A stretch of 32,771 nucleotides of DNA from IMG/VR virus record IMGVR_UViG_3300032167_000022; one strand, written 5' to 3'. The position numbers were made by a program, and so were the translations under genes. The notes below the pieces were generated by a model. The model did no database searches. It was not told the origin of the DNA and worked only from the letters and a program-made list of their open reading frames with translations. How positions within the stretch are numbered: the first letter of the stretch is position 1; the number at the start of each line of letters is the position of its first letter. This document shows positions 7,194 to 31,664 of this stretch, piece by piece. Source of the DNA: a virus.

Positions 7194-8936
7194 ATGGCTT
7201 TATAGGATTTATTAAATTTATCTGAACAAAGAAAAAAAATTGGTTTATCTGAAGAAAGAGTAAATGCTATTATTCCAATAGTGCGTCAATACATTGCCTT
7301 TTGGAGAGAATATCCTGATATGTTTGTGGATTTTCTAGTTAGAGGTAATAGAACTGAAATAAAAGATGGCGAATTTAAATTTTATTTTTATTAGCGAGTA
7401 TTTTTGCGTGCGGCAATGCGACATCAGTATCTGTACGCAGTATTTCCTCGCGCCTATTCAAAATCATTCTTATCAGTAATGGTGTTAATGTGTAAATGTA
7501 TTTTGTATCCTCGTTGCAAATTGTTTGTTACTTCTGGAGGTAAGGAACAAGCTGCTGGTATCATTAAAGAAAAAGTTCAAGAAATTTGTACTCTTATTCC
7601 TGCGTTTAAAAATGAAATAGACTGGACAAGAGGTAAAACTCTTGAAGGAAAAGATTATTGTAAATATGTTTTTACAAATGGTTCATATTTTGATAATATC
7701 GCAGCGAGAGAAAGCTCTCGTGGTAAACGTCGTCATGGTGGTTTAATTGAGGAATGTGTTGGTGTTGATGGTACTATTCTTTCTGAAGTAATTATTCCTA
7801 CAATGAACGTTTCTCGTATGTGTATGGATGGTTCAACGCATCCAGAAGAATAGTTAAATAAGTCATAGATTTATGTAACTACAGCTGGATGGAAAAATAC
7901 ATTCCCTTATGATAAGCTCATTCAATTACTAGTATGGCAAATTGTTAAACCAGAAAAATCTATGATACTTGGTGGTACATATCGTATTCCAGTATTAGTT
8001 AAATTACTTGATAAAAACTTTATCCGTGATTTAAAAATGGATGGTACATTTAATGAGATGTCTTTTGACCGTGAATATGAAAGTAAATGGTCTGGTTCGG
8101 TTGAAGATGCTTTCTTTAATTCAGAAGTTTTTGATAGAAATAGAATTTTAAAATAGCCTGAATATGAAGCATCAGGGCGCTCAAGCAAATCTAGTTTTTA
8201 TATATTATCTGCGGATGTTGGTCGTAAAGGTTGTGATACTGTAGTATGCGTATTTAAGGTAACACCATAGCCGCAAGGCTCTTCCATAAAAACTTTAGTA
8301 AATTTATTTACTTTATCAGATGCGCATTTTGAAGATTAGGCTATTAAATTAAAAAGATTATTTTATAAATTTAATGCTCGTAGATTAATAATTGATGCTA
8401 ATGGTATGGGTATTGGTTTATTAGATTATTTAGTAAAGCCTCAAATTGACCCAGATACTGGCGATACTTTCCCTGATTTTGGTGTTTATAATGATGAAGA
8501 AGGATATTATAAAAAATATAGAACAGTAAATTGCGAACAAGATGCTGTTTATCAAATAAAAGCAAATGCTCCTATAAATACTGAAGCTCATGCTAATGCG
8601 CGTTCTCAATTATCTTCTGGAAAAGTTAAAATGCTTATAGATGAACGTGTGGCAAAAGTTAAATTAATGGGAACAAAATTAGGTTAGAATATGAAGCCTG
8701 AAGAAAGGGCAGAATATTTAAAACCATTTACTTTAACTTCCATATTAAGAGAGGAATTAATGAACCTTCGTGAAGAAAATGAAGGTGTTAATATTATACT
8801 TAAATAGGTAAACCGAGGGGTTAGAAAAGATAAATTTTCTGCCTTTGAATATGGTCTATATTATATTAAACAAGAAGAAGATAATAAAAAGAAGAAAAAG
8901 AAATTTAATGCTAAAGAGTGGATGTTTTTAAGTTAA
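7194..8936 (+). CDS. terL: terminase large subunit (about 580 aa, 9 in-frame TAG)
   Basis: RBS gagggt. The translation gives FYFY*RVF aligned with the T4 gp17 Y-Q-R adenine-binding motif, a deviant Walker A (PRAYSKS), YVTTAGW (motif III), and nuclease-domain aspartates (ILSADVGRKG, LIIDANGMGIGL). It ends at a TAA. Confidence 0.8.
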
Positions 8937-8948
8937 GGGGGGAGATAA

Positions 8949-9305
8949 TTGCGGGCATCTCGTGGTGAAATCAAAATAGAAGAAATTTTGACAGAAGCAG
9001 AATTACATTTTAAAATGGAATATATTTTTCCAGATTTAAAAAGTCCAAATGGTCGTCCTTTGAGATTTGATTTTGTTGTTTTTGATGATGATGGAAATAT
9101 TGATTTTATTATTGAATATTAGGGAAAATAGCATTATGAAGCTAGTCAAAAATTTGGTGGTAAAAAAGGTCTTTATCAACAACAATATAATGATAATCAA
9201 AAAAGAAGATTTTGTGCTTTACATGATTTTAAATTAATTGAAATCCCTTATACAGATGAACATCTTATTACTTATGATTATTTAATGCATTTAGCAGGAT
9301 ATTAA
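8949..9305 (+). CDS. DUF559/Vsr-like small endonuclease-fold protein (about 118 aa; RFDFVVFDDDGNIDFIIEY*GK*HY)
   Basis: Frame 0 ORF after RBS aagggggga. I propose a TTG start at 8949; the alternative is the in-frame ATG at about 9012. The motif resembles the DUF559 consensus (lvIEvDG.qH). Confidence 0.45.
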
Positions 9306-9322
9306 GTAAAGGAGGTGGAATT

Positions 9323-10936
9323 TTGGATAATAAAGAATTAACGCGAAATGAACAAATTCATGCTAAAGGTTTTAACATTGATGGCGGATATAGAGATTAT
9401 GCTTGTATAGATAGTGAGACTGACTTTAAACGTATAAAAGTTGGAGTTAAGCAATTAGATGACGCAGTTTTAAATTTAGGTTCATTAAAATCTTGTTTGC
9501 CACCAAACCATAAATTCGCAGATAAAAAATATATCTTTAAAATGATTATGGATAGAAATATAGAAGAATTGAGAAATATATCTAATTTCTATTATAATAT
9601 GAATGGTATATATGAAAGAGTTTGTAATTATTTCGCTTAGTTATATAGATATGACTGGTATGTTGTTCCAGAAGTAATTGATGATAGTATTAAAGAAGAT
9701 AAAATATTGAAAGATTTTTCTAAAGTGCTGAATTATTTAGATAATTCATATGTTAGAAAAATTTGTCAAGATATTGCTTTAGAGATTATGAAAAATGGAT
9801 GTTATTATGGATATCTTGTTCCAAGTTCAGATAGCATTATTCTACAACAATTGCCGATTGAATATTGCCGCTCTCGCTATAGCGTCGCAGGAATGCCAGC
9901 CATTGAATTTAATATGAAATTTTTTGATACGTTTAGAGATATGAATTATCGTTTAAAAGTATTAAATTTATTTCCCGATGAATTCAAAAAAGGTTATTTA
10001 CTTTATAAGCAAGGAAAATTACCCGCTGAAGTGTAGGGAGATAGTAGTGGTGGATGGTATTTATTAGATACAGATAGTGCTGTTAAATTTAATTTTAATG
10101 GTAGTGATATTCCTCCATTTGTAAATGCTATTGGGGCTTTATTGGATTTAGATGCTGCTTAGGATTTAGACCGTCGTAAGTAGATGTAGAAATTGTTAAA
10201 AATTATTGTTCAAAAACTTCCATTAGATAAAAATGGTGATTTAATTTTTGATGTAGATGAAGCAAGAGATATTCACAATAATGGTGTATAGATGTTAAGA
10301 CGTGCTGTTGGTGTTGATGTTTTAACAACTTTTACTGATGTTGATTCAATTGATTTATCTGATAAAAATACATCTACAACAACCGATGATTTGGAAAAAG
10401 TAGAAAGAGCATTATTTAATGCTTTAGGTATTTCTTAGAATTTATTTAATACTGATGGAAATTTATCATTGGAAAAATCTATTTTAAATGATGAATCAGT
10501 AGTGAGAAATCTATTATGTTAGTTTAGTATTTTCTTTGACAAAGTTATTGATAAAAAATATTCAAATGGAAAAAAATATAAATTTAAATTTTATATGTTA
10601 GAAACCACTCAATATAATTATAAAGATTTAGCTAAATTATACAAAGAATAGACGCAAATTGGATATTCAAAAATGTTACCGCAAATAGCTTTAGGTCATT
10701 CTCAAAGCTTTATTTTAAATTCAGTACATTTTGAAAATGAAGTATTACATTTAAGTGAAATTATGATTCCTCCTCTAATGAGTTCAACTATGAGTAGTGA
10801 AGATGTTTTAGGTAATAAAAAATCTACAACTAGTTCCAATTCTAATTCTACTTCTGGAAATGCGGTTGGCCGACCGGAGAAAGCAGATTCAGAAAAAAGT
10901 GAAAAGACAATTCAAAATAAAGAGTCAATGAATTAA
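9323..10936 (+). CDS. portal protein (about 537 aa, about 12 in-frame TAG)
   Basis: TTG start after AAAGGAGGTGG. One frame is continuous, joining track ORFs 9323, 9707 and 10673. It lies downstream of terL and has a Ser/Thr-rich acidic C-terminus. I did not verify family membership. Confidence 0.5.
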
Positions 10937-10947: not shown

Positions 10948-12579
10948 ATGAAACATAAAAGTATTAAATTAGATACAGGAGTTGAATTAATTAATATCAC
11001 TCCTTTTAATCCATTAATTTCTAAATGTTAGATTAAGGTTTGTTATGTAAGTGATGAACCTAACAGAAATAAAAGTATAATTACTAAAGAAGTTGCTAAA
11101 TAGATTGCTAATAGTCTTCCAGGCAGTCCTATTGTTGGTTATTATAACGAACACAAAGAAGACTTTGAAGAACATAATAGAATTATTGAAATTTCAAATG
11201 GATAGTTTAAAATTAAAGATACAACTAGACCATATGGATTTGTTGATTTAGGAGCAAAAGTATGGTTTCAGAAATTTTTAGATGATGATACCACTGAAAG
11301 AGAATATTTAGTAACTGAAGGATGGCTGTGGACTGGTCAATATCCTGAATGCCAACGAGCAATTGATGAAGGAAATAATCATTCTATGGAATTAGATGAA
11401 GATTATTTAAATGCTTTTTGGACGAAAGATAGTAATGGAAAACCTTAGTTTTTTATTATAAATGAAGCAATTATTTCAAAACTTTGTATGTTAGGCGAGG
11501 ATAATGAACCTTGTTTTGAAGGTTCAAATATTACCGCGCCAGATTTAACATTCTCATATGGAGATAATTTTAAAGAACAACTTTTCTCTATGATGAATGA
11601 AATAAAAGAATTATTAAATGAAGGAGGAAAAGAAGTGTTTACTAGATACGCTGTAGAAATCGGTGACGCTTTATGGAGCAGTCTTTATAGCTACCTTGAA
11701 AAAACATATCCAGATGGACAGTATTGTTCTGTATATCGTATTGAAGGTATTTATGAAGAGAATGGTCAAAAGTTTACTATTCTTCAACATCGTGCTGATT
11801 TAAAATATTTCCGTTTAAATTTCTCTTTGGATGAAAGTAATGGATTTGTTCCATCAGACACTTTTGTTGAGGTAACAAAGACTTATACTCCATCTGAACA
11901 GCCTCAGTTCGCTTTGGCTGATATTGAAGCTTATGAAGCTGAATATGCCTCAAATCAGAAAAATTCTTCTGAAGAAGAGGACAAAAATGATAAAGATGAA
12001 ACAAACAATTCTGATAATAATTCAGAAGGTGAAAAAGCACCTGAAGATAATGAAACTTTCGCAAAGAAAGATGATGAAGAGGAAGAAAAATGTCCTAAAT
12101 GCGGCAAACCTGTAAAGGAATGCGAGTGCGAGGATGAAGAAGAAGAGGATAAGAAAAAGAAATATTCTCTTGAAGAAATTCCTGAATATGTAGAACTTCA
12201 AAATACTTATGCTCAATTAAAGAGTGATTATGATGCTCTTGTACTTGAAAAAGAAAATCTTGAAGCGCAAATTAAACCATTATCTGAATTTAAAGCTAAT
12301 GCTGATAAAAAAGAAAAAGAAGCAATGATTGCTAGTTTCTATATGCTTTCTGATGAAGATAAAGCTGATGTTATTACCAATATTGATACTTATTCTTTGG
12401 ATGAAATTGAAGCAAAGCTTGCTATTATTTGTGTTCGTAACAAGGTTAGTTTTAATCTTGAAGATGATAAAGGTGTTGAAACACCACCTACAACTTATGA
12501 CCTAAACAGTGATGATAATAATGATAATGTTCCTGCTTGGGTTAAACGTGCAATGTCTGTTGCAGAAAATATGAAATAA
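10948..12579 (+). CDS. prohead protease and/or scaffolding protein (about 543 aa: N-terminal domain with 5 TAG, then an acidic coiled-coil C-terminal half with no TAG and a CPKCGKPVKECEC motif)
   Basis: RBS ggaggataataATG. The frame is continuous to track ORF 11488..12579. Its position between portal and capsid and its acidic coiled-coil composition support the call. Confidence 0.45.
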
Positions 12580-12608: not shown

Positions 12609-13427
12609 ATGTATTCACCTGGAATGGAAAAATGGTTCAAGAATAATTATGCTAGCCAGGCAAAATACGTTCAGTTTGGTTTTGGTCAGGTTGAACCTAA
12701 CCATCTTTCTGCTCAACGTACCGGCCAGATTTATGGCCAATTGCCTGCGGCTGCTGATATTGCTATTTTAGAGCAAGGCCAGTTTGTAAAGTATGACTAT
12801 GCGAAGGGTGTAGTTAATTTTGAGGGTGCTGGCGAATGGATGCTCGTTTATAATGAAATTAAGTTATATCGTGAAAATCAGGCAGATTGCGAATTCGCAA
12901 TGTTAAAAGATAATTATCAGGCTCGTGTTTATAGCCCATTTGGTTACGGTCTTGATAAGGACGGCAATCAGGCTCCTGATATTGTCTGGGACAAACAGTC
13001 TCGTTATTATAATGGTGTTGATGCTGAAGGTAATGACTCCATTACTCTTAATGATAAGACTTATAAGTTTGATGATGTAACTGCTGATGGTACCACTATT
13101 ACTGCTGCTGATGGTACTGAAAAGCATATTTCTGCTGACCCTTATGAGATGAATCTCACTAGTGACCCTTATCATATTGAAGGTCCTTATAAGGAAGCTA
13201 TGATGCCCGAAGGCACCACAATGGTTCCTCGCGTATTTAAGACTAATGTTGGTGATATTTTCACTACTAACACTGTAAATGCTGACACTCTTGCTGTTGG
13301 TGATATTCTTACTCCTGGTGCTAAGGGTATCCTTGAGGTTGGCGAAGGCGATATGAAGTGGCAGGTTGTTAAAGTTTATACAATGCCTGATAGACAGCAA
13401 GGCGTTAAGATTATGCGTATTGCGTAA
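12609..13427 (+). CDS. capsid-associated structural protein (272 aa; decoration or auxiliary capsid protein?), TAG-free, higher GC and different codon usage
   Basis: RBS aaaggaggacatatataATG. Complete ORF; Thr/Gly/Asp-rich. Confidence 0.5.
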   Translation: MYSPGMEKWFKNNYASQAKYVQFGFGQVEPNHLSAQRTGQIYGQLPAAADIAILEQGQFVKYDYAKGVVNFEGAGEWMLVYNEIKLYRENQADCEFAMLKDNYQARVYSPFGYGLDKDGNQAPDIVWDKQSRYYNGVDAEGNDSITLNDKTYKFDDVTADGTTITAADGTEKHISADPYEMNLTSDPYHIEGPYKEAMMPEGTTMVPRVFKTNVGDIFTTNTVNADTLAVGDILTPGAKGILEVGEGDMKWQVVKVYTMPDRQQGVKIMRIA

Positions 13428-13444
13428 GAAAGGAGTGAAGAATA

Positions 13445-14560
13445 ATGGCTTTAGATAGACAAAATTTAGTTGATTTGATGAAGCAGGTAGCAAAAGCTGA
13501 CCCTTCCGCTCCTACTGCTTATGCGTATGGTGATAAGACTCTTAGCTATGATGCTTTAAATGAAACTTTGCGTCAAGAATTAAATGAACTTGCTGGTTCA
13601 TATTCTGACTATCGTGAAAATAAAAATCTTATTTTCGCAGTAATTGAAGAAACTCTTGATGAAGTTCTTCCTAAGAAGGTTGAACAGAAATATGAGCAGT
13701 TTGCTGAAGTTAAGCAGTTTGCTCAAGGTGATAAGCCTGCGTTTCGCCGCAAGGTTGGTTCCAGCAAACGTGCTAAGCAGTTTATTACTCGTGTTGGTTT
13801 AAATGGTATTTATGAAGTATTTAAGCTTGCTCCTAATACCGATGAAGTAATTGAAGTTCGTACTTCTGCTGTCGGTGGAGCTGCTCAAATCGGATTTGAG
13901 GAGTTCCTTGATGGTCGTGTAGACTTCGCAGAAGTTACTCGCATCGTTATGGAGGGTATTGATGAACTTATTTATAAGGAAATCGCGCATGCTCTTAAAG
14001 CTTCTGTAAATCAGTTACCACCAGCAAATAGAGTTGCTGCTCCTGGCTTTGATGAGGCTGCTTTTGACAAACTTCTTACTATTGCTAATGCTTATGGTAC
14101 ACCTACTATTTATTGTACTTATGAATTTGCTGTTCAGATGATTCCATAGGAAGCTTGGAGATATACTGAGGCAATGAAGACTGAGCTTTGGAATACTGGT
14201 CGTCTCGCTTCTTATAAGGGACATAAGGTAGTTATTCTTGAGCAAGGCTTTGAGGATGAAACTAATAGTCGCAAAGTTATTGACCCAGGTTATGTATGGA
14301 TTATTCCTGCTGGCGCTGATAGCAAGCCTGTAAAGGTTGCTTTTGAAGGTCAGACTCTTGTTGATGAATAGGTTAATAAGGACCGTTCTCGTGAAATTCA
14401 GGTTTATAAGAAGGTTGGCGTTGTTGCTATGTTGGCAAATAACATTTGCTGCTATGTTGATACTGCTCTTCTTGGTGACCTTGATACTTGGCATCTTGAT
14501 GGTGTAACCGGTAAGGTTGCTACTTATGATGGCCGTCTTGATGGTTCTTTAAAGGCGTAA
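13445..14560 (+). CDS. major capsid protein candidate (371 aa, only 2 TAG)
   Basis: RBS aaggagtgaagaataATG. It joins track ORFs 13445 and 14174 through TAG. A strong terminator follows it, as is typical for a major capsid gene. The residue pattern is reminiscent of HK97-fold capsid proteins, but this is not verified. Confidence 0.5.
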
Positions 14561-14596
14561 TTAATAATTTAAAATTAAATATATATAAATAAACAT

Positions 14597-14640
14597 GGGG
14601 GAGAATGGGGATGTTCCCCTTCTCCCTTATATTTATTAAT
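14597..14640 (+). terminator. rho-independent terminator after the capsid gene
   Basis: GC hairpin ggggagaatgggga-tgt-tccccttctccc followed by ttatatttatt. Confidence 0.6.
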
Positions 14641-14662
14641 GGAGATAAAGGAGATAAATAAA

Positions 14663-15226
14663 ATGGCAAATAATAAAATATGTTTAGTAAAGAATAGAAG
14701 TGCTGGAATGGTTGTTTATAAAATTCCAGAAGATGGAGTTAGACGTGAATTTCAGCCCGGTGAAACAAAAAAGATTGCGTTTACAGAGTTGGAGAAATTA
14801 ACTTATCAACCTGGTGGACGCACACTTATTGCGAATTTTCTTCAAATTACTGATGAAAAAGTAACTAGTGATTTAAATGTTCATACAGAAGCTGAGTACT
14901 ATATGTCTGAAGAACAAGTTGCTGAATTGATTTTAAATGGTGAACTTGACGCTTTCCTTGATGCTTTAGATTATGCCCCTATTGGCGTAATTGATTTAAT
15001 TAAGCAATATGCTATTTCTCTTCCAATGAATGACTTACAGAAGAGAGATGCTTTATTGAAAAAGACTGGTTTTGATGTGACCAGAGCTCTTGAAAATTTG
15101 CGCAATGAACAGCAAGTTGATAATGCTAATAAGGAAAATGATGCGGCTCCAGCTACTACTTCTAGACGTAGAACAACTACAAATTATAAAGTCGTTAATA
15201 AAACAGAAGAAAGTAAAAGTGAGTAA
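14663..15226 (+). CDS. hypothetical structural protein (187 aa), TAG-free
   Basis: RBS aaaggagataaataaaATG. The track ORF start at 14639 is probably too early. Confidence 0.5.
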   Translation: MANNKICLVKNRSAGMVVYKIPEDGVRREFQPGETKKIAFTELEKLTYQPGGRTLIANFLQITDEKVTSDLNVHTEAEYYMSEEQVAELILNGELDAFLDALDYAPIGVIDLIKQYAISLPMNDLQKRDALLKKTGFDVTRALENLRNEQQVDNANKENDAAPATTSRRRTTTNYKVVNKTEESKSE

Positions 15227-15248
15227 TTAATAGATAGGAGGCGAAGAG

Positions 15249-15917
15249 ATGGCAACACTTTTTGGAAGTGTTTATAATCGCTTTCTTGGAAAAATTACTG
15301 ATGATTTGTATATGGAATTAACCCCAGAAGATACAATTAAGGATTTGTAGAATTTCTTAATTGACGCAATTCCTGGTTTTGAATTTCCACGCATTAATTT
15401 ATTTGATTATAAAATTAATTTACAAATTGTTGATGCTGATTAGCTCGTAGATGATGATTTTATTTTAGGAGCTATTTGGGGAGATATTTCAAATACTGAT
15501 AAATCATAGATTCCTAGTTTTGATGAATTTGCTTCATTACCAGCTAATTTATAGTTTCATGTAACTTGGGGCGAAATACCAGATACATCAAAACCAGATG
15601 TTCCAAAAGTTCTTGTTGATAGGTCTTATTTTACAGCTGAATTAAGTTCTGAAGAAATCAATATTTTAGCAATATTGATGAAACAGGCTTGGGTTTAGCG
15701 TCAAGTTACTTCAATTGAGCATACTCGTATGAAATATAGTGGGTCAGATTTTAAAATGACTTCACAAGCAAACCATTTACAAAAATTATTAAATTTATTG
15801 GAAGAATCTCGTAGAGATTCTCTCCATATGTAGCGTTTATATAAACGAAGAAAAAATGTAAATGGAATTTATCAATCTAATTGGTCTATATTGAGGGATA
15901 CGAGTGCTATTAACTAA
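15249..15917 (+). CDS. head-tail joining region protein (222 aa, 6 TAG)
   Basis: RBS taggaggcgaagagATG. Frame 0 is continuous to a TAA. Confidence 0.45.
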
Positions 15918-16212
15918 ATATGGCTATTATGTGCCACAAGAAGTAATTGACAAAACTGTAAAAAGATTAACAAATTAGCTATGGAAATTAATTCCTATGC
16001 GTGAAAATAATGAAGACTGGCAAAAACAATTGGAAACTGTAATAGTAGAAATTGCGGGTTTAAATGAAATTTTCATTTGCTCGCATTTTTTATAGCTTCT
16101 TAGTAAGCTAGAAGGAATAAAAGTCCAAGATATAAATTTTGAGCTATATAGAAAAACTGTATTTGAATCAATCAGTTTACTTTAGGAGTTAAGCCGTGGA
16201 ATCAGGTTATGA
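15904..16212 (+). CDS. small protein (about 102 aa, 3 TAG), possible GTG start overlapping the upstream gene
   Basis: Frame 1 opens after the TGA at 15892. There is a GTG at 15904 with gaggga 5 nt upstream. It ends in TGA. The start is uncertain. Confidence 0.3.
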
Positions 16213-17269
16213 TTTTAGTGGACGACATTCCTATAGATTATTACAAGGAAGATTAGGAAGCTATGATAAAAGACCATATGACCCCACGCAAACAGACCCT
16301 AAGCTTGATGGTATTGAAAGCTAGTCTATGCGATTGAGGGCACACGGTGGTAATAGATAGCAAGAAAGAATGATAAAAGATAAACGTCGTTCTTTAGATT
16401 AGGCAGTTTGGAATTCATATCAAGCTGCTGAAGTAGTACGTGTAGATGCGGAAAACCGCAAGCCTGTACGTGCTTTGATTAATCCTAATAAATTAAAACA
16501 GGATTATGATGATAAAATCATCTCTATTGGATTTGAATATAATTTTAAATGCGGTGATGTATTTGAATGGTTAGGAACTAAATCTCATTGGTTAATTTAT
16601 TTACAAGATTTAACTGAATTAGCTTATTTCCGTGGAGATATTAGAAGATGTTCTTATGAAATTAATTGGACAGATGAAAATGGAGAACATTCTACATATG
16701 CTGCTATTAGAGGTCCAGTAGAAACAAAAATAAATTATATACAAAAACATGGTATTAGTGTTGACACACCTAATTATTCATTAAATTTATTATTGCCGCA
16801 AACTAAAGAAACTTTAGAATATTTTAAAAGATATTCAAAATTTTATTTGTAGAGTGATGATGAAAATGCTTAGTAGGTATGTTGGAGAGTAGAGGCTATT
16901 GACTGGATTAGTACTCCTGGAATATTGGAGATTAATGCGGTTGAATATTATGCGAATGAGACTGAGGATGATATTGAAAATGGTGTTGTTGGAGGTTTGA
17001 TTGTTAAACCAGAGAATCCTAACACTGAAGAGATTGAAGAAACAATTGTTGGTGAAACATTTATTAAACCTAAAAAAGAATATGAGTTTTAGTTTACTGG
17101 AACCGCAGAACTTAATTGGGTAATAGATAAAAAATATCCTATTATTTATGAAGTAAATGAGGATAATCCAAAATAGATTAAATTAAAATGGGATAGTGCT
17201 TATTCGGGTTAGTTTAATTTAAATTATGGAAATTATGTTAAAACAATTGTTGTTGAATCTTTGTTTTAA
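16196..17269 (+). CDS. head-tail/tail structural protein (about 357 aa, about 9 TAG including a TAG TAG doublet)
   Basis: GTG at 16196 with taggag 5 nt upstream. Frame 2 is continuous through track ORF 16475..16852 to the TAA at 17267. The start could instead be the internal ATG at about 16326. Confidence 0.4.
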
Positions 17270-17298
17270 TATTGTTTAGAGTAAAAGGAGAATTAATT

Positions 17299-17883
17299 AT
17301 GAAATTAGAAACATATACTTGTCCAAAATCAAGTTTTTTGTCAGCAGAAAAAGATATGGCGATTATTACAAATACATTAATTAAAAATGATAATTTGAAA
17401 CGTCTTTTATATTATAATACAAAAGATTGTTTAAATTAGCCAAAACTAACAGAAGATTAGACATTAGGACTTTTTAATAAAAATATTAAATTAGTTCCTA
17501 AACTATATGTTGATGGCTCTGTTTTAACTTATATAATTGTGAGTTTTGATAATTTTACTGCTAATGGTACTAATCCAGAATTTAGAGATAATATTGTTGA
17601 ATTTGATATTATTTGTCATTTTGATTAGTGGCAGTTAAAAGATTTTTAGTTAAGACCATATCGTATCGCTGCTGAAATTGATTCAATGTTTGATGGTTAG
17701 CATTTAACTGGTATAGGCGAGTTAGAATTTTTAGGAGCAAATCAAATTATTTTAACTGATGAATATGCTGGATTATGTTTAATGTATCAAGCAATTCATG
17801 GAGAAGAAGATAAGAAATTCATGCCTAACCCCAATAATGAGCAATAGATGATTGAAAATTTTAATAAAATTTTTAATGAATAA
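17299..17883 (+). CDS. tail/connector-region protein (194 aa, 6 TAG)
   Basis: RBS aaaggagaattaattATG. Frame 1 runs to a TAA. Confidence 0.45.
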
Positions 17884-18608
17884 TGGATAGACGATTAGCT
17901 TTAATGTGCGGAACTGACATTCCAGTTCCCGAATGTTAGGTTACCGTTCATCAACCACTTATTAAAGAAATTGCTTTAATTGGAGAGAAAGATTTTTTTA
18001 CAGGAGTACAAACTTTTTGTATAAGTAAAAAAATGTTCGCATAGGACAAAGGTCTTTTAGAAAATACCAATAATTTTTAGATATTTATGACAATAATGTC
18101 GGAAAAAGAAACAGCCGATAAAAAATTTTCTGTATAGCAAATGGTTCCTTTATTTTTTCCAAATTATAAAATTAATTTTACTCCACGTTCTATAATTCTA
18201 TAGAATAATGGTAAAATAATTACAATTGATGAAAAAAATTTTGAACCTTTGTAGGATGCTATTTCAGAAATTTGTTGTTTAAAGACTGGCCCAATGGATA
18301 CGAATGGTTTTAATCCCGCAGATAAAAAAGCGCAAGAAATTGCGGATAAATTACTGCGTGGTCGGCAACGAGTTGCTGAACAAAAGGGTGAGTCTAATGC
18401 TAGTATATTTAGTCAATATCTTTCAACTTTGACTGTTGGATTAAATTCTATGAGTTTATAGGATTTAATGGAATTAACCATATTTCAAATATATGATTTG
18501 CTTGAAAGATATACACTATTTATTAATTGGGATATAGATGTTCGTTCTCGTTTAGCAGGAGCTTAGCCTGATTCTAAACCAGACAACTGGATGAAAAATA
18601 TCCATTAA
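17883..18608 (+). CDS. tail/connector-region protein (241 aa, 8 TAG), start overlapping the upstream stop (TAATG)
   Basis: ATG at 17883. Frame 0 runs to the TAA at 18606. Confidence 0.45.
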
Positions 18609-18641
18609 AAAATTAATTTTTTATTTAGGAGGTACCCAGAT

Positions 18642-19676
18642 ATGAAGTTCGGTGTACGCGAAATTTGTGATGTCGTACTAAAGGCTAAAGCGCCCCAGAA
18701 GATTGGTAATAAGGTTTTCTACAAGGGTGAGCCTGTTATTTATTTTGATACTTTAAAGACTTCCAGTATGGAAGGTGCTGCTACCACCGTATATGCTCAA
18801 GGTGGTCGTGGTAACTCTAGACTTGTAGCATGGGAAGGTGAAAGAACTGTTACTTTCACAATGGAAGATGCTCTTATTTCTCCTGCTGGATTTATGATTC
18901 TTTCTGGTGCAGGACTTATTGAAGGTTCTAAAGATGTTAAGATTCAAGTCCATGTAGCAGAGCAGACTGACAAGACATATGTTACCAGTGAAGGTGATGC
19001 TTTAATTATTACTGAACAAGTAATTTCTAAAGACCCTGATGCTAGTATCTATGTAATGGTTATGAAAGATGGCGAGATTGAGACCGAGCCTTTTGTTGGA
19101 ACTATTTTAGATGCTGAAGGAACTTTTGAAGCAGTTAATGTCACTGAAAAGGAACAGGCAGAAATCACAGCAGCTATTGCGGCAGGTAGAGCAATTGTAA
19201 TTGAGGATATTGCTGACCCAGCTTATACTCCTAATCCTACTGATGTTACTACTGAGGATGTTGATAGTGGTTATACTGAAAAGATTCGTGGTTTCTACGA
19301 TGGCGCAGTTGTAATGGTTGACTATTATACTGAAAAGGGTAAGGGTGCTCAGCAAATTGAAATTACTCCTGATAAGTTCGGTGGTAACTATTATCTTGAG
19401 GCTTCTACTTTATTCCGTGATACTAATGGTGTAGATATGCCTGCTGAGTTTATTATTCCTAACTGTAAGATTCAGTCTAACTTTACCTTTACTATGGCTA
19501 GTTCCGGTGACCCATCTACATTTACATTTACTATGGACGCATTCCCGGATTACACTCGTTTTGATAAGACCAAGAAAGTTTTGGCTGCTATCCAGATTAT
19601 CAACGAGACTCAGAATGAGGAAGTATATCGTAGCAGAACTATTCATGACCCTGCTCACGATGCTATTTTAGGCTAA
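18642..19676 (+). CDS. major tail (tube) protein candidate (344 aa), TAG-free, higher GC
   Basis: RBS ggaggtacccagatATG. It is immediately followed by a strong terminator and lies upstream of the chaperone and tape measure genes. The composition suggests high expression. Confidence 0.5.
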   Translation: MKFGVREICDVVLKAKAPQKIGNKVFYKGEPVIYFDTLKTSSMEGAATTVYAQGGRGNSRLVAWEGERTVTFTMEDALISPAGFMILSGAGLIEGSKDVKIQVHVAEQTDKTYVTSEGDALIITEQVISKDPDASIYVMVMKDGEIETEPFVGTILDAEGTFEAVNVTEKEQAEITAAIAAGRAIVIEDIADPAYTPNPTDVTTEDVDSGYTEKIRGFYDGAVVMVDYYTEKGKGAQQIEITPDKFGGNYYLEASTLFRDTNGVDMPAEFIIPNCKIQSNFTFTMASSGDPSTFTFTMDAFPDYTRFDKTKKVLAAIQIINETQNEEVYRSRTIHDPAHDAILG

Positions 19677-19681: not shown

Positions 19682-19891
19682 ATGATTATCCATTCTAGTA
19701 GAGCTACCAAGCTTGCGCCAGTGGCTTCTCCCAAGCAGCCTGAGGCTCAGCCTAAAGTGGAGAAAAAGCCTGAACGCAGACGTAAAGAAAAACAAAATCA
19801 TATTGAAGTAGCTGAACAGTTACCAGTAGCTGAAAAGGCGAAGAAGATTTTGGAAGAAATAGAAGAAGAAGTTAAAAGTGAAAATGAATAA
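19682..19891 (+). CDS. small charged protein (69 aa) 5 nt after the tail-tube stop; alternatively a frameshift extension of the tail tube protein
   Basis: ORF in the -1 frame relative to the tube gene. There is no clear RBS. Confidence 0.3.
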   Translation: MIIHSSRATKLAPVASPKQPEAQPKVEKKPERRRKEKQNHIEVAEQLPVAEKAKKILEEIEEEVKSENE

Positions 19892-19894
19892 AAT

Positions 19895-21743: not shown

Positions 21744-24700
21744 ATGGCTCAATAGAGATTTGATTTTACATTAGGTATAAAAGCTGATACAAGTCAAGCC
21801 GAATAGAAAATGAATGAGTTGGCTAATTCTTTGAAAAAAATTGCGTCAAATCCTCCATCTTTATTAGATGATTAGGATTTAAAAGATGCTACGAAATCAG
21901 CGCAAGAATTAGAAAAACATTTGTCTAAAGCTGTAAATGTAAATACTGGTAAATTAGATTTATCAAAATTTTCAAAAAGTTTATCCTCTGCTGGATAGGA
22001 TTTAACATATTTTTAGAAAAATTTATCTAAACTTGGCGTAGAAGGTGAGTAGGCATTTTTAAAACTTGCTGAAAATATTGCTATGGCTGAAGTGCCAACA
22101 GTGCGTTTAAATAATCATTTAAAGAATTTTTTAGATGAATTAATTAAAGTCGGACGTTGGCAATTGAGTTCTAATATTATGCACGGACTGTAGGGAGCCA
22201 TTTAGACTGCTTATGGTTATGCGCAAGATTTAAATGAATCATTAACAAACATTAGAATTGTTACTGGTTAGACTACAGATGAAATGGCTAAATTTGCGTT
22301 AAGAGCAAATGATGCGGCAAAAGCTTTAAGTACAACTACTACTAACTATACAGATGCGGCATTAATCTTCTATCAGCAAGGTCTTGCGGAAGATTAGGTT
22401 GAAGAGCGCACAAACACAACAATTAAAATGGCTAATGCTACTGGTGAAAATGTTACAAAGATATCTGACCAATTAACTGCGGTTTGGAATAACTTTGATA
22501 ATGGTACCAAGCCATTGGAATATTATGCTGATGTTATGACTGCGTTAGGTGCGGCAACTGCTTCTAGTACTGATGAAATCGCTGAAGGTATTGAAAAGTT
22601 TGCTTCAATTTCTGAAATGATTGGTTTAAGTTATGAGTATGCGGCTTCCGCGCTTACGACCGTAACAGATGTCACTCGTCAAAGTGCCGATGTAGTAGGT
22701 ACTGCATTTAAAACGATTTTCGCACGTATTTAGGGTTTAAAACTTGGTGATACATTAGAAGATGGTACATCTTTAAATAAATACTCATAGGCTCTTGCTT
22801 CTGTTGGTATTTCTATTTTTGATTAGAATCAACAATTAAAAGATATGGATGATATCCTTGATGAGATGGGCGCTAAATGGTCATTACTTAGTAGAGACTA
22901 GCAAGCTGCGCTCGCGCAAACTGTTGCTGGCGTAAGACAGTACAATCAGCTTGTATCTCTTATGAATAACTGGGATTTCTTTAAATAGAATGTAAATGTA
23001 GCAAAAGGTTCTGAAGGAACTTTAACTGAACAATCAGCTATTTATGAAGAAAGCTGGGAAGCATCTTTAAAGAGAGTTAGAGCTTCTGCTGAAGGTATTT
23101 ATGATAGTTTAATTGATGAAGAATTTTTTATTAAGATTAATGATATTTTTGCTAAATTATTAGAAGGAATTAATGGAGCAATAGATGGTATTGGCGGATT
23201 TGAAGGAATTTTAAAAACTTTAGGTAGTGTATTTATGTCTTATTTTGCTTCTAAAATGCCGAAAGCATTATCAGGCATAAGCAATACTTTTAGTATTATT
23301 ACTGGAAAAGCTTTAAGAGATACTTAGAAAATACAATAGGAAAGTATTAATAGTTTATCTAAAATGCGTCCTGATGCTACTAATGCTGAAAAAATTTAGC
23401 AAGAAGGATTGAAAAAAGTTGCTATTTTAAAGCGTGAATTAACTAATATTTCTAATAAATTAACTGAAGAAGAAAAAGAAGAAAATTAGAATAGAATATA
23501 GCAAACCGCAGATATTTATGCTAATGCTGCTGCCATTGAAAAAGAAGCGGCAGAATTAAGAAAACTTAATGAAGAAAAAATTAAAAGTTCTTCTAATCAA
23601 ATTACAAACGAAGCTTTCGGATTTAGAGAAACTATTGCTGAAGATCAAAATCAAATAAATACATTAAGTTAGATATAGAATAGAACAAAATTAGATGATT
23701 CAAGATTAGATAAAGCTACTTCACGAGTTAATGAATTAACTGAGCAATTTTTTAAATTAAAAGATGCTATGGATGAAGTTATAGAATCTAAACAAATAGC
23801 TTTTGATAAAAAAGATTGGGAAGAATTTTCTAATATGGGAGAATTATTAGATTTTGATAGTAGAGAATCTAAAGAGTATTTCCAATATGTTGGAGAAGGA
23901 ATTGATTAGTTAAAAGCAAAATATATTGATTTTAGAAAACAAGAGTAGTAGTATGAATATTTAAAAAATAAAATAGATATTAATAAAGCAGCTTGGACTG
24001 CTCCTGATTTTAATTTATCTTTGGATGAAGCAAAAAATTCTATTTCACAATATTTAAGACAAATAGATGAATTAAAAAAATAGGGATTTGTTTAGTTAGA
24101 TATAGATACAACAGAGTTGTAGTCAAAATTGAAATCAACTGATGTAACTGTTGAGGATTTACAAAAATCATTTATTTCTTTTTTAAATAATTTATCAAAT
24201 AAAGCTTCAAAAACTTCTACAAGTTTTTCAAAAGATGGCGATAAGATTCATAGTGCATTATTAAAAATTTTAACTCCTTTAATGGGTGATAAAAGTCAAG
24301 CTGAAAAAGCAATTGAAGGTCTGCGCACAAAATTAGCAGAATTAACAGAAGAAGAAATGGATTCTGTTTTACGCACAACTGGAATGTTATCGGAAAGAGT
24401 AGATGAACTTCCAAAACATGCTTATAAAGCCTCAGAAGCTATAATGGAACTTGGAAGTGCTTTAATGTCTTTAAATTCTTTTATGAATTCTGTTAGTAGT
24501 ACTACTCAAATACTTGAAGATAATACTGCTTCTATGGCTGATAAAATAGGAGCTGTTGTTGGAGCAGCTTCTACTGGAATTTTTACTTTTAATTAGACTA
24601 AATAGGCAATGATTGCTGTTGTTGGAGCTGTAAGTAAATTTGCGGGAGCGGCAACTACAGCCGCCAAAAGTGGAGCTGCTTTATCGGGAATTTTAAGTAA

Positions 24701-30700: not shown

Positions 30701-31664
30701 AAAAGCTCTTGGAGATGAATTATAGAAAGTTAGAGAGTTAATTACAGAATATGCTTTACAAAGTAATGGATTAGATATTTTAGCTGAAAAATATGAATCT
30801 TTAAGAGGTCAAATTGATAGTTTAATTTCATCAATTAATAGTATTCCTGATTGCGCTGAATGGTGTGTAAAAACATATGGAGATGGCGGAATGGGAGGAG
30901 GAGATACTGGAGGTAATTTCCCAGTTGATCCTGACCCAGTTTTTTCATCTGATGATGATGATAGTAAATTTGGTTGTGGTGCTCATACTGCTACAACAGC
31001 AGATGATATTAAAGATACATCAATAACATCAAATACTAATAAAAATTATGCTGTAGAATCTGCTAAATATTGGAAAGGTCAACAAAGTATTGGAGAAGCT
31101 GCTGCTAATTTAGGAATTTCTGTTAGTGAAATGAATAAAATAAATATGGCTTTAGCGGGTTAGACTGAAAATTGGAATGGTACTAAAATTTTCACTGAAG
31201 AATTTGCTGATTAGAATTTATCTGATGATTATGAAAGAACTCAAAAAAGTGGATTTGATGAAATTATTAATAATCAACAATCTGCTGCTAATGTAAATAA
31301 ATGGCTTATAGATGAAGGTATAGCAACTGGTGCCACAGGCATGTATACTGGGGCTTGGGGTCCAGAAGGTAGATTAGCGTTATTGCATGAAAAAGAATTA
31401 GTATTAAATAAAGAAGATACTAAAAATTTCTTACATGCAACCGATATTTTAAGAAGTATATCTGATGTAATAGATTTACAAGCTATGTCAAATCAATTTA
31501 ATACTTTATCTGCTAGTATCTATTCTGGTTCTTCTGGAATATTAGAACAATCAGTTCATATAGAAGCTAATTTCCCGAATGTATCTGATAGGAATGAAAT
31601 TGAAGAAGCGTTTAATAATCTTATTAATACAGCTTCTCAATATGCGAATCGTAAAACTATATAA
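21744..31664 (+). CDS. tail tape measure protein, about 3306 aa, with on the order of 100 in-frame TAG and no in-frame TAA or TGA in the parts I translated
   Basis: RBS aaaggagtaattatatattATG. Frame 0 links nine track ORF fragments (22428, 24129, 24609, 26376, 27021, 29547, 30891, 31341). It carries the TP901-type tape measure core motif (GISIFD*NQQLKDMDDILDEMGAKWSLLSRD*QAALAQTVAGVRQYNQLVSLMNNW), a Gly/Ala-rich membrane segment (MIAVVGAVSKFAGAATTAAKSGAALSGILSKGLAAIGGPTTLIIAGITAAIMGLVGFLG), and long coiled-coil stretches. It ends at a TAA followed by a terminator. Confidence 0.85.

What the first reader, a model, noticed from the sequence alone, without database searches (positions are those of the whole stretch)
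12609..19676. The most highly expressed structural genes avoid the recoded TAG codon and have a distinct base composition
TAG density is about 3-4% of codons in the tape measure, terminase and portal genes. It is 0 in 272 codons at 12609..13427, 2 in 371 in the capsid gene 13445..14560, 0 in 187 at 14663..15226, 0 in 344 in the major tail gene 18642..19676, and 0 in the 363-codon scaffold half of 10948..12579. These genes are also visibly more GC-rich. Either suppression is inefficient and abundant proteins are selected against TAG, or these genes were recently acquired from a non-recoded relative. In both cases readthrough appears to be costly.
Basis: seen in the sequence. Interest (0 to 1): 0.6.

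Follow-up and report, generated by a model that had tools for sequence, protein, structure and literature searches.

The report
Abundant virion genes avoid recoded TAG
In a gut phage that reads the stop codon TAG as glutamine, the genes for its highest-copy building blocks (capsid, tail tube, scaffold and two capsid-neighbour proteins) are kept almost free of TAG in every related lineage, which fits natural selection treating the borrowed codon as the worst one to translate rather than recent gene transfer.

Summary
Four genes (12609-13427, 13445-14560, 14663-15226, 18642-19676) hold 2 TAG in 1182 codons, against 151 in 7677 for the other late genes (p=1e-7), and they are GC-richer (0.34-0.41 vs 0.25-0.31). 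The quoted 3-4% background is too high for tape measure, terminase and portal (1.6-2.4%).

TAG encodes Gln: it aligns with Q in 60% of pairs with standard-code orthologs. All 27 recoded lineages show the same depletion. The depletion is frame-specific (13.8-fold in frame, 1.1-2.0-fold off frame).

Standard-code relatives show the same composition and CAG/AAG/CTT/GGT/CGT preference in the same genes, so the bias does not depend on recoding. A Gln-independent codon-bias index predicts TAG share (rho -0.93). TAG is the most counter-selected codon.

Inside the scaffold gene, TAG density falls from 1.29% to 0.23% at a conserved nested start (AAGGAGG-GTG, 11635).

The TAG-free genes are no closer to standard-code relatives than TAG-rich genes, so recent acquisition is not supported.

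Best reading: translational selection against an inefficiently decoded codon in high-copy virion proteins. That cost is inferred, not measured. The same effect is known in ciliates, and I found no explicit report of it for phages.

The parts
12609..13427 (+). YonC-position gene (272 codons, phrog_35301) immediately upstream of the capsid gene. It has 0 TAG and is one of the three most strongly codon-biased genes in the window. It may be a capsid auxiliary or decoration protein.
   Evidence: Window counts: 0 TAG, 4 CAA, 11 CAG, GC 0.406. Across 27 recoded lineages: 5 TAG in 7444 codons. Gln-independent bias index +0.151. Strong RBS AAAGGAGG. Synteny with VRE9_3 phrog_35301. The AF2 model is poor (pLDDT 54). 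Its confident C-terminal beta domain gives only weak Foldseek hits (probability up to 0.91, E about 0.2) to small outer-shell chains of the BB1, FCWL1 and T1 capsids.
13445..14560 (+). Major capsid protein gene (371 codons; phrog_4088; Pfam YonB on matching contigs). It has 2 TAG, at codons 235 and 309.
   Evidence: tblastn hits to annotated major capsid proteins of Bacillus phages Kirov and Thrax (24.5% identity, E=6e-11) and to phAss-1 (49%). PF27364 YonB. Across 27 lineages: 5 TAG in 9901 codons, with 23 lineages at zero. At codon 235 other lineages have CAG or CAA. Codon 309 is a variable Phe/Tyr site.
14663..15226 (+). YonA-position gene (187 codons, phrog_30998). It has 0 TAG and moderate codon bias. 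Function unknown.
   Evidence: 0 TAG. RBS AAAGGAG lies before the ATG at 14663. The ENA gene call is 187 aa. Across 26 lineages: 17 TAG in 4804 codons, i.e. 0.35%, an intermediate value. AF2 pLDDT 71 with no significant PDB fold match.
18642..19676 (+). Major tail (tube) protein gene (344 codons; phrog_2729; Pfam YomU_Tube). It has 0 TAG.
   Evidence: PF27173 YomU_Tube on matching contigs. tblastn hits to annotated 'major tail protein' and 'tail tube protein' of Bacillus phages Thrax3, Skywalker and Izhevsk. Across 20 lineages: 4 TAG in 6421 codons. Bias index +0.155.
11635..12579 (+). Nested C-terminal product of the YonD-like gene, the putative scaffold. It would be initiated in frame at a GTG (codon 230) preceded by AAGGAGG. 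It is TAG-free in the window and TAG-poor in relatives.
   Evidence: The motif GGA GGA, 6-9 nt, then GTG or ATG is invariant at the nucleotide level in 31 lineages while flanking codons vary. The start codon alternates between GTG (27 lineages) and ATG (4). Upstream of it TAG is 79 in 6147 codons (1.29%, bias index -0.133). Downstream it is 17 in 7363 (0.23%, index +0.031). Fisher p=2e-11.
10948..11634 (+). N-terminal part of the YonD-like gene, translated only as part of the full-length product. It holds all four TAGs of that gene.
   Evidence: TAG at codons 28, 52, 86 and 167. PF27290 YonD_N.
15249..18608 (+). Five interleaved low-copy head-completion and tail-joining genes, including YomW- and YomV-like genes. 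They are TAG-rich (2.6-3.3% of codons; TAG is 40-60% of Gln codons) and serve as the contrast class inside the finding's span.
21744..31664 (+). Tape measure gene (3306 codons, 78 TAG, 2.36%). This is low-copy contrast class. Its length implies a very long tail and therefore a very high tube-protein copy number.
   Evidence: PF10145 PhageMin_Tail and the ENA gene call of 3306 aa.
7194..10936 (+). Terminase large subunit (9 TAG), homing-endonuclease-like ORF (2 TAG) and portal (9 TAG). Low-copy contrast class.

Best explanation
The window is the late structural module of a large SPbeta/phAss-like siphovirus that reads TAG as glutamine.

In this lineage TAG has become a third, AT-rich synonymous Gln codon, one C-to-T transition away from CAG. 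In low-copy late genes it drifts up to 25-60% of Gln codons.

The proteins needed in hundreds of copies per virion are the capsid protein, the tail tube protein of a very long tail, the internally initiated scaffold, the YonC-like protein, and to a lesser degree the YonA-like protein. In their genes, the same translational selection that enforces a host-adapted codon set (CAG, AAG, GAG, CTT, GGT, CGT, GCT, ACT; avoidance of ATA, GGA, TCA, TTA) also purges TAG, and does so more strongly than for any other codon.

The higher GC of these genes has two sources. One is this codon preference at third positions. The other is an amino-acid composition rich in Ala, Gly, Val, Thr and Pro at first and second positions. 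Both are present in the standard-code relatives of this family, so they are independent of recoding.

Shown here: the frame-specific, lineage-recurrent, graded depletion of TAG; TAG=Gln; and the fact that the bias does not depend on recoding.

Inferred: the reason TAG is disfavoured. A phage suppressor tRNA(CUA) must compete with host release factor 1, and may also be scarce. Each TAG would then cost yield through truncated product or slow decoding, and that cost scales with the number of copies made.
For: - TAG=Gln: TAG aligns with Q in 60% of pairs with standard-code orthologs, against a Q background of 4.1%. Total Gln including TAG is 3.8-4.4% in every gene class and code state.
- Recurrence: across 27 independent recoded lineages TAG per codon is 0.05-0.07% (capsid, tube, YonC-like) and 0.35% (YonA-like), against 0.55-3.5% elsewhere. 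In 27 of 27 lineages the focal genes are lower than the rest.
- Replication: a distant genus, phAss-1, shows the same pattern, with a capsid gene of 0 TAG, 0 CAA and 15 CAG.
- Frame specificity: 13.8-fold depletion in frame against 2.0-fold and 1.1-fold off frame.
- Mutational supply: CAG, the one-step precursor of TAG, is most abundant in exactly these genes.
- No persistence: 26 of 28 TAG-bearing alignment columns in focal genes are confined to one lineage, against 51% in other genes.
- A specific codon preference, not a GC shift: AAG is 0.67 of Lys codons in focal genes against 0.11 elsewhere (p=1e-35), while GCG, CCG, ACG and GGG do not increase.
- Independence from recoding: the same preference occurs in the same genes of standard-code relatives.
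- Host specificity: the preference runs in the opposite direction for Lys/Gln/Glu in Enterococcus phage VRE9_3.
- Graded relation: the Gln-independent bias index against TAG share gives rho=-0.93, p=1e-7, over 16 genes pooled across 26 other lineages, and rho=-0.65 in the window alone.
- Strength: the log odds shift between the rest and the focal genes is 4.75 for TAG vs CAG and 2.67 for TAG vs CAA. Other codon pairs shift by 1-2.7.
- Within-gene switch at the conserved nested start of the scaffold gene.
- Protein identities.
- Suppressor tRNA-CTA genes are present in phAss-1 (PMC10607447).
- RF1 competition limits amber suppression (PMC5465077).
- The same effect is reported in ciliates (PMC10553269).
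Against: - No expression, proteomic or ribosome-profiling data exist for this phage. High expression is inferred from homology, virion stoichiometry in general, and codon bias, and codon bias is partly circular as a proxy.
- The functions of the YonC-like and YonA-like proteins are unknown.
- The host is unknown, so the match of the preferred codons to host tRNAs or to highly expressed host genes could not be tested.
- No suppressor tRNA or release-factor gene lies in the window or in the +-10 kb loci, so the decoding mechanism is borrowed from relatives and from the literature.
- The +4 nucleotide context of TAG resembles that of CAG, and TAG shows no positional bias within genes. There is therefore no independent signature of RF1 competition.
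- The window's own capsid gene tolerates 2 TAG.
- crAss-like phages carry recoded stops in their capsid genes (PMC7886860), so the cost is not prohibitive.
Confidence: 0.8

Rival explanations
1. Recent horizontal acquisition: the TAG-free, GC-richer genes were imported recently from a standard-code relative and have not yet had time to accumulate TAG.
For: The family contains both standard-code lineages (5) and recoded lineages (27). Gene-to-gene mosaicism is common: pairwise identity correlations between genes are only 0.1-0.5.
Against: - The pattern recurs in all 27 recoded lineages and in phAss-1. This explanation would need the same four genes to be re-imported independently in every lineage.
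- Focal genes are no closer to standard-code lineages than other genes. The best-standard/best-recoded identity ratio is 0.89-0.93 for focal genes and 0.87-0.88 for non-focal genes.
- The window's capsid protein is only 81% identical to the nearest standard-code one, whereas its TAG-rich terminase is 85% identical to a standard-code lineage.
- The composition is a property of the orthologs in both code states.
- The TAG density switch falls inside one gene, at a translation start.
Confidence: 0.03
2. Mutational or compositional by-product: these genes are GC-richer for non-selective reasons, such as local mutation bias or amino-acid content, and an AT-rich trinucleotide like TAG is simply rarer there.
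For: Off-frame TAG is somewhat lower in the focal genes: 2.0-fold in frame 2 and 0.029 vs 0.048 per codon in the window. GC1 and GC2 are raised through amino-acid composition.
Against: - In-frame depletion is 13.8-fold, against 1.1-2.0-fold off frame.
- CAA has the same GC content as TAG, yet TAG falls a further 14-fold relative to CAA (ln OR 2.67).
- G-ending four-fold codons are not enriched, while T-ending codons (GCT, GGT, CGT, CCT, ACT, CTT) are.
- The CAG precursor is most abundant in these genes.
Confidence: 0.04
3. Temporal gating: the TAG-free genes must be translatable before the phage's suppressor tRNA switches the code, so that building blocks accumulate early. TAG-bearing genes (portal, terminase, tape measure, completion proteins) are held back on purpose. 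TAG absence would then reflect timing, not cost per copy.
For: - The published model holds that recoded stops delay late and lysis gene expression (Borges et al. preprint 10.1101/2021.08.26.457843).
- Early genes on the left arm are TAG-free, and one of them uses TAG as its stop.
- The partition between high-copy and low-copy proteins is also a partition between building blocks and assembly-completing proteins.
Against: - The TAG-free genes are interleaved with TAG-rich genes on one strand, with short intergenic gaps. The consensus scan found no promoter in front of them.
- The relation with codon bias is graded rather than binary.
- TAG-free early genes are not consistently codon-biased in the same way (pooled index -0.105, individual genes -0.34 to +0.22), so there are two different classes of TAG-free gene.
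- The window's capsid gene carries 2 TAG and would be gated anyway.
- This rival is not mutually exclusive with the best explanation.
Confidence: 0.1
4. Protein-level constraint: TAG is decoded ambiguously or imperfectly, so it is tolerated only at unconstrained sites, and highly conserved proteins therefore lack it.
For: The capsid protein is among the most conserved proteins of the module (78% median identity).
Against: - Conservation does not predict TAG share (rho=+0.30, p=0.26).
- The YonC-like, YonA-like and tube proteins are among the least conserved (54-60% median identity) yet are TAG-free.
- The terminase (74%) and the homing-endonuclease-like ORF (83%) carry TAG.
- TAG sits predominantly at conserved Gln columns.
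Confidence: 0.03

Closest known systems
Reduced use of reassigned stop codons in highly expressed genes of ciliates (Oligohymenophorea sp. PL0344, with Paramecium and Tetrahymena cited for the GC trend; PMC10553269)
   Same: Reassigned stop codons are widely used but less so in highly expressed genes, which are also GC-richer than the AT-rich genome average. The authors offer the same interpretation, translational inefficiency.
   Different: In ciliates the code change is genome-wide and permanent, with modified eRF1 and no competing host decoding system. Here a virus uses TAG as a sense codon inside a host that still terminates at TAG. The depletion here is close to absolute (0.05% of codons), can be resolved gene by gene, and can even be resolved within one gene.
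TAG-to-Gln (code 15) recoded gut phages, with the 'late-gene gating' model (Borges et al. preprint 10.1101/2021.08.26.457843; Yutin et al. PMC7886860; Peters et al. PMC9523058)
   Same: An AT-rich phage with TAG=Gln confined to the late structural module, standard-code early genes, and close standard-code relatives.
   Different: That literature stresses enrichment of recoded stops in structural and lysis genes as a class. [quoted passage not shown] Here the highest-copy structural genes are the exception inside the recoded module. In crAss-like phages the capsid gene does carry recoded stops.
Phage phAss-1 / proposed Phassvirus, 'Caudoviricetes code 15 clade' (OQ749652; PMC10607447)
   Same: The same structural module: capsid protein 49% identical, a tape measure of about 3150 aa, TAG=Gln, and three tRNA-Sup(CTA) genes. 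The paper lists TAG in TerL, portal, tape measure and tail fibre, and by implication none in the capsid gene.
   Different: It is a different genus with higher GC (about 0.42 in this region). The paper does not comment on, or explain, the TAG-free capsid and tube genes.
Classical translational selection on synonymous codon usage in phage and bacterial highly expressed genes (Sharp-Li and Bulmer mutation-selection-drift framework; own knowledge)
   Same: A specific preferred codon set is concentrated in the genes for the most abundant proteins, rare codons such as ATA are avoided, and abundant proteins use cheaper amino acids.
   Different: The codon under the strongest counter-selection here is a reassigned stop, decoded by a virus-supplied tRNA rather than by the host's tRNA pool.
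Nested scaffold genes translated from an internal in-frame start (lambda C/Nu3 type; own knowledge)
   Same: An in-frame internal start with a strong Shine-Dalgarno sequence inside a head-assembly gene just upstream of the capsid genes. The C-terminal part is a coiled-coil, acidic, scaffold-like sequence.
   Different: The N-terminal domain (Pfam YonD_N) was not shown to be a protease, and the internal product has not been demonstrated.

Membership tests
Code 15 (TAG=Gln) recoded phage | In-frame TAG codons in conserved genes, where reading TAG as sense restores full-length ORFs | tested here: met
   ORF coverage rises from 18.8 kb to 38.0 kb. The tape measure becomes one ORF of 3306 codons holding 78 TAG. 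The terminase and portal become intact.
Code 15 (TAG=Gln) recoded phage | TAG positions align with glutamine in standard-code homologs | tested here: met
   Q in 60.3% of aligned pairs against a 4.1% background, with E (9%) and K (6%) next. Total Gln including TAG is equal across code states.
Code 15 (TAG=Gln) recoded phage | A suppressor tRNA with anticodon CUA encoded by the phage | not testable with these tools
   No tRNA in the window or in 31 related +-10 kb loci. The rest of the roughly 186-kb genome could not be read. Suppressor tRNA genes are present in the relative phAss-1.
Code 15 (TAG=Gln) recoded phage | Early genes compatible with the host's standard code | tested here: met
   Nine minus-strand ORFs at 75-4797 have 0 in-frame TAG in 833 codons. 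One of them (785-1102) terminates with TAG.
SPbeta/phAss-like giant siphovirus structural module | Conserved gene order: TerL, portal, YonD, YonC, YonB (capsid), YonA ... YomW, YomV, YomU (tube) ... YomO, then a very long tape measure | tested here: met
   Precomputed Pfam families YonG_N, YonD_N, YonB, YomW, YomV_2nd, YomU_Tube, YomO and PhageMin_Tail on contigs that carry an identical copy of the 12609-13427 protein with the same gene order and, in the code-15 gene calls, near-identical gene lengths. PHROG-by-PHROG synteny with Enterococcus phage VRE9_3.
[quoted passage not shown] | A specific set of preferred codons, not a uniform GC shift, concentrated in a subset of genes | tested here: met
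   RSCU comparison: 15 of 18 amino-acid families differ at p<0.05. T-ending four-fold codons and AAG, CAG and GAG rise, while GCG, CCG, ACG and GGG do not.
[quoted passage not shown] | The biased genes encode the most abundantly made proteins | tested here: inconclusive
   The capsid and tube identities are supported by homology, and the scaffold by the nested start. The YonC-like and YonA-like functions are unresolved. No direct expression data exist.
[quoted passage not shown] | The preferred codons match the host's tRNA pool or its highly expressed genes | not testable with these tools
   The host is unknown. Clostridia are predicted for phAss-1. Indirect support: the direction of bias differs in Enterococcus phage VRE9_3.
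[quoted passage not shown] | The effect is specific to the reading frame and persists across independent lineages | tested here: met
   13.8-fold in frame against 1.1-2.0-fold off frame. 27 of 27 lineages.
Nested internal-start scaffold gene (lambda C/Nu3 type) | A conserved in-frame start codon with a Shine-Dalgarno sequence inside the upstream head gene | tested here: met
   AAGGAGG followed by GTG at 11635. The GGA GGA motif is invariant, and the start alternates between GTG and ATG, in 31 lineages.
Nested internal-start scaffold gene (lambda C/Nu3 type) | A separate C-terminal polypeptide is actually produced | not testable with these tools
   This needs proteomics or N-terminal sequencing.

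The most novel reading that the evidence does not exclude
The late proteome of these phages is deliberately split into two sets. A suppression-independent set holds the bulk building blocks: capsid, tube, scaffold and the capsid-neighbour proteins. A suppression-dependent set holds the low-copy assembly and completion proteins: portal, terminase, tape measure, head-tail joining and tail-tip proteins.

In this reading TAG density acts as a tunable translational attenuator. It would set virion stoichiometry within one polycistronic operon and make completion of particles, but not accumulation of parts, conditional on suppressor tRNA level. TAG would be positively used as a dial in minor genes, not merely purged from major ones.
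Probability: 0.15. Interest if true: 0.7.

Novelty: new member of a known kind. Interest (0 to 1): 0.42.

Why it matters
Stop-codon recoding in phages is usually described as a property of late or structural genes as a class, and is interpreted as a timing switch. This locus and its 80 relatives show a finer rule. Within the recoded module, use of the recoded codon is inversely graded with inferred translation demand, and TAG is the single most counter-selected codon.

That gives a population-genetic estimate of how costly the reassigned codon is compared with ordinary rare codons: a log odds shift of 4.75 against CAG and 2.67 against CAA.

It also has practical consequences. Capsid and tail-tube genes of such phages remain intact under standard-code gene calling. 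This may contribute to the finding that 57% of code-15 phages still yield a capsid-gene call under table 11 (PMC11210395). An intact capsid gene therefore cannot be taken as evidence that a phage uses the standard code.

The coexistence of standard-code and recoded lineages with the same gene set makes this family a good natural system for studying how a code change spreads through a genome.

Tried and rejected
- Pfam-A (local copy), PDB sequence searches and PHROGs gave no function for the YonC-like and YonA-like proteins.
- AF2 models were weak (pLDDT 54) and moderate (pLDDT 71). Foldseek against the PDB gave no significant matches. There was only a weak resemblance between the YonC-like C-terminal domain and small capsid outer-shell chains, which I treat as a hint only.
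- Nucleotide context of TAG, as a signature of RF1 competition: the +4 base distribution after TAG is like that after CAG. The -1 base is more A/T, but that is expected in AT3-rich genes. TAG is evenly spread along genes (KS p=0.22). No independent signal.
- Shine-Dalgarno strength as a second expression proxy: all focal genes have a strong SD, but so do 9 of 15 other late genes, so it does not discriminate.
- The consensus promoter and terminator scans found no dedicated promoter in front of the TAG-free genes. Promoter-like hits are no more frequent than in shuffled sequence.
- tRNA scans of the window and of 31 related loci found nothing.
- Protein conservation as an explanation was rejected (rho=+0.3, not significant).
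- Horizontal transfer was rejected on distance ratios and on recurrence. Formal gene-tree reconciliation was not done, because pairwise identities already show general mosaicism affecting all genes equally.
- Literature searches found no explicit phage report of this avoidance. The library is incomplete, and only the preprint of the Borges et al. study was read.

Full report
**What the window is.** The 32.8-kb window has 31% GC and no tRNA genes. Reading TAG as a sense codon doubles the long-ORF coverage, from 18.8 kb to 38.0 kb. It also produces an uninterrupted + strand array from 4936 to the end of the window, including a tape-measure gene of 3306 codons with 78 in-frame TAG.

PHROG hits identify a portal and, weakly, a large terminase. 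The gene order matches the cultured Enterococcus phage VRE9_3, PHROG by PHROG.

Contigs that carry an identical copy of the 12609-13427 protein, with the same gene order and, in the code-15 gene calls, near-identical gene lengths, have precomputed Pfam hits to SPbeta virion families:
- YonG_N and YonD_N
- YonB, on the capsid gene
- YomW and YomV
- YomU_Tube, on 18642-19676
- YomO and PhageMin_Tail

tblastn links 13445-14560 to annotated major capsid proteins, and 18642-19676 to annotated major tail or tail tube proteins, of large long-tailed Bacillus siphoviruses. It also links the capsid gene at 49% identity to the described TAG-recoded gut phage phAss-1.

The left arm (1-4860, minus strand) holds small standard-code ORFs. 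Each is preceded by a repeated near-consensus TTGACA-17-TGnTATAAT unit, so it looks like an early module.

**The observation.** The counts in the finding are exact:

| Gene | TAG | Codons |
|---|---|---|
| 12609-13427 | 0 | 272 |
| 13445-14560 | 2 | 371 |
| 14663-15226 | 0 | 187 |
| 18642-19676 | 0 | 344 |

In 10948-12579 all four TAGs lie in the first 167 codons.

Pooled, the four genes hold 2 TAG in 1182 codons against 151 in 7677 elsewhere. Fisher p=1.2e-7, and p=3e-8 against CAA+CAG. They are GC-richer at all three codon positions, with overall GC of 0.34-0.41 against 0.25-0.31.

The only inaccuracy is the background rate. The tape measure, terminase and portal carry 2.4%, 1.6% and 1.9% TAG, not 3-4%. 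Only the small genes between 15249 and 18608 reach about 3%.

**TAG is glutamine.** A capsid-protein search of viral contigs returned 80 related loci. Of these, 57 are TAG-recoded and 23 use the standard code. At 90% capsid-gene nucleotide identity they collapse into 27 recoded lineages, counting the window, and 5 standard-code lineages.

Where a recoded ortholog has TAG, standard-code orthologs have Q in 60% of aligned pairs, against a 4.1% background. The sum of CAA, CAG and TAG is 3.8-4.4% of codons in every gene class and both code states. TAG is therefore a synonymous Gln codon, and the finding is a question about synonymous codon choice.

**Selection or recent transfer.** Six results point to selection.

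1. Recurrence. With one representative per lineage, TAG per codon is 5/7444 (YonC-like), 5/9901 (capsid), 4/6421 (tube) and 17/4804 (YonA-like), against 0.55-3.5% in the other genes. In 27 of 27 recoded lineages the focal genes are lower than the rest. phAss-1, a different genus, repeats the pattern, with a capsid gene of 0 TAG, 0 CAA and 15 CAG.
2. Independence from recoding. In standard-code relatives the same four orthologs already have raised GC1 and GC2 and prefer CAG (46-70% of CAA+CAG, against 12-29% in other genes).
3. The focal genes are not closer to standard-code lineages. The ratio of best identity to a standard lineage over best identity to another recoded lineage is 0.87-0.93 for all six genes tested. 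In the window, the TAG-rich terminase is the gene whose best match is a standard-code lineage (85%). The capsid protein is 81% identical to its nearest standard-code homolog and 82% to its nearest recoded one. Mosaicism exists, but it affects all genes alike.
4. Frame specificity. The depletion is 13.8-fold in frame, against 2.0-fold and 1.1-fold in the other two frames.
5. Mutational supply. CAG, the one-step precursor of TAG, is most abundant in these genes.
6. No persistence. The few TAGs that occur in focal genes do not persist. 26 of 28 TAG-bearing alignment columns are confined to a single lineage, against 51% in other genes, where a TAG column is shared by 2.9 lineages on average.

**What the distinct composition is.** It is not a plain GC shift.

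In the window the focal genes prefer AAG (0.67 of Lys codons against 0.11 elsewhere, p=1e-35). They also prefer CAG, GAG, CTT, GGT, CGT, GCT, ACT, CCT and C-ending two-fold codons. They avoid ATA, GGA, TCA, ACA, CCA and TTA. GCG, CCG, ACG, GTG and GGG do not increase. The same preferences appear in the standard-code relatives.

The focal proteins are also richer in Ala, Gly, Val, Thr and Pro, and poorer in Asn, Leu, Ser and Lys (counts). That explains the rise in GC1 and GC2.

In Enterococcus phage VRE9_3 the homologous capsid gene almost excludes AAG, CAG and GAG, the opposite choice for Lys, Gln and Glu. It shares the avoidance of ATA with the window's focal genes. This is the expected behaviour of host-specific translational selection.

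**Graded relationship.** I trained a preferred-codon index only on standard-code relatives and computed it without Gln codons. It predicts the TAG share of Gln codons with Spearman rho=-0.65 in the window (p=0.002). Over 16 genes pooled across the 26 other recoded lineages, rho=-0.93 (p=1e-7). Genes with intermediate index values, namely the YonD-like, YonA-like and YomO-like genes, have intermediate TAG shares.

The shift in log odds between ordinary and focal genes is largest for TAG:

| Codon pair | ln odds ratio |
|---|---|
| TAG vs CAG | 4.75 +- 0.27 |
| ATA vs ATT | 2.74 |
| TAG vs CAA | 2.67 +- 0.27 |
| CAA vs CAG | 2.08 |
| AAA vs AAG | 1.74 |

TAG is therefore disfavoured even relative to the ordinary non-preferred Gln codon, to a degree matched only by ATA.

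**A within-gene control.** In the YonD-like gene an in-frame GTG at 11635 (codon 230) is preceded by AAGGAGG.

Across 31 lineages the GGA GGA motif is invariant at the nucleotide level, although GGA is a disfavoured Gly codon and the neighbouring codons vary freely. The start codon alternates between GTG (27 lineages) and ATG (4). This is the signature of a nested initiation site that produces a C-terminal scaffold-like product.

Upstream of it TAG is 1.29% of codons and 32% of Gln codons, with bias index -0.133. Downstream it is 0.23% and 8%, with index +0.031 (p=2e-11). A change in TAG usage at a translation start inside one gene is hard to explain by transfer or mutation bias. It is what selection on translated copy number predicts.

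**Mechanism, and what is inferred.**

Shown:
- TAG=Gln.
- A frame-specific, recurrent, graded purging of TAG from a defined gene set.
- A codon bias that does not depend on recoding.

Inferred:
- These genes are the most heavily translated. For capsid, tube and scaffold this rests on homology and general virion stoichiometry. A 3306-residue tape measure implies a very long tail and hence several hundred tube subunits. The functions of the YonC-like and YonA-like proteins remain unknown.
- TAG is costly because a phage-supplied suppressor tRNA(CUA) must compete with host RF1, may be scarce, or both. Suppressor tRNA genes are present in phAss-1 (PMC10607447). RF1 competition is the known limit on amber suppression (PMC5465077).

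I found no independent sequence signature of RF1 competition. The context and position of TAG are unremarkable.

A timing explanation, in which building blocks are translatable before the code switch, is not excluded and could act alongside. However, the graded relation, the interleaved operon layout and the 2 TAGs in the window's own capsid gene argue against it as the main cause.

In the phage literature I could search:
- Recoded stops are described as enriched in structural and lysis genes.
- The phAss-1 paper lists TAG in TerL, portal, tape measure and tail fibre without commenting on the intact capsid gene.
- Cook et al. note that a capsid gene is still found under table 11 in 57% of code-15 phages.
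- crAss-like capsid genes do carry recoded stops, so the avoidance is not universal among recoded phages.

I therefore rate this as a well-supported new instance of a known principle in a new setting, not a new kind of system.

**Verdict.** The cost of readthrough is inferred, not measured. Interest is moderate. The result qualifies the prevailing picture that late genes are recoded as a class. It gives a quantitative handle on the fitness cost of a reassigned stop codon. It also matters for how recoded phages are detected.

Noticed in passing
window 321-2998 and 4813-4862 (minus-strand sense): There are 8-9 copies of a 50-90 nt unit holding a near-consensus TTGACA-17-TGnTATAAT promoter plus leader. 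Each sits upstream of a small minus-strand ORF, so this looks like an array of strong early promoters. ORFs at 1234-2937 have GC3 of about 0.5, far above the rest of the window (0.13-0.30).
   Followed up: partly
window 785-1102 (minus strand): This early gene ends in TAG as its stop codon, while TAG is a Gln codon in the late module of the same genome. After the code switch the gene would be extended by 16 codons, to 737.
   Followed up: partly
window 3273-3400: A cluster of 11-nt-periodic direct repeats (TTGTTCACAA/TTTACAA-like, 6 overlapping copies) lies in a non-coding stretch of the early arm. They could be iterons or operator sites. A further 36-nt tandem pair sits at 3576-3647.
   Followed up: no
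window 11614-11637: A conserved nested translation start (AAGGAGG-N7-GTG) lies inside the YonD-like gene. It is invariant across 31 lineages, with GTG/ATG alternation, and implies a separately translated scaffold-like C-terminal protein.
   Followed up: yes
window 21050-21701: A perfect consensus promoter (TTGACA-17-TATAAT with TG, 21050-21078) and a strong 15-bp hairpin terminator (21668-21701) bracket the YomO-like gene 21108-21632. That gene has an intermediate TAG share and a CAG preference, so it may be an independently and highly transcribed unit just before the tape measure.
   Followed up: no
window 19686-19929: A small ORF downstream of the tube gene begins near two consecutive TAG codons (19696-19701). 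It is followed by an 18-bp hairpin with a T-run (19890-19929), which is probably the terminator of the tube-gene transcript.
   Followed up: no
window 9015-9305: A 96-codon ORF between terminase and portal corresponds in position to the 'homing endonuclease' of Enterococcus phage VRE9_3. It is unusually conserved (83% median identity over 79 loci) and carries TAG codons.
   Followed up: no
loci L003-L006, L012-L021, L023-L025, L056-L057, L065-L067, L080 compared with the other L001-L080: Standard-code and TAG-recoded lineages of the same phage family coexist, with the same gene order and comparable divergence. For example, the window's terminase is closest to the standard-code L056. This implies repeated code switching, or recombination across code states, over short evolutionary distances.
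   Followed up: partly
L081 (Enterococcus phage VRE9_3) 5447-12512: In this cultured standard-code relative, the capsid gene almost excludes AAG, CAG and GAG, the opposite choice for Lys, Gln and Glu. It shares avoidance of ATA with the window's focal genes. The direction of bias is host-specific.
   Followed up: partly
window 13445-14560, codon 309: One of the two TAGs in the window's capsid gene lies at a variable site where other lineages have Phe, Tyr, Leu or Glu rather than Gln. It may have arisen from TAT by a single change.
   Followed up: no
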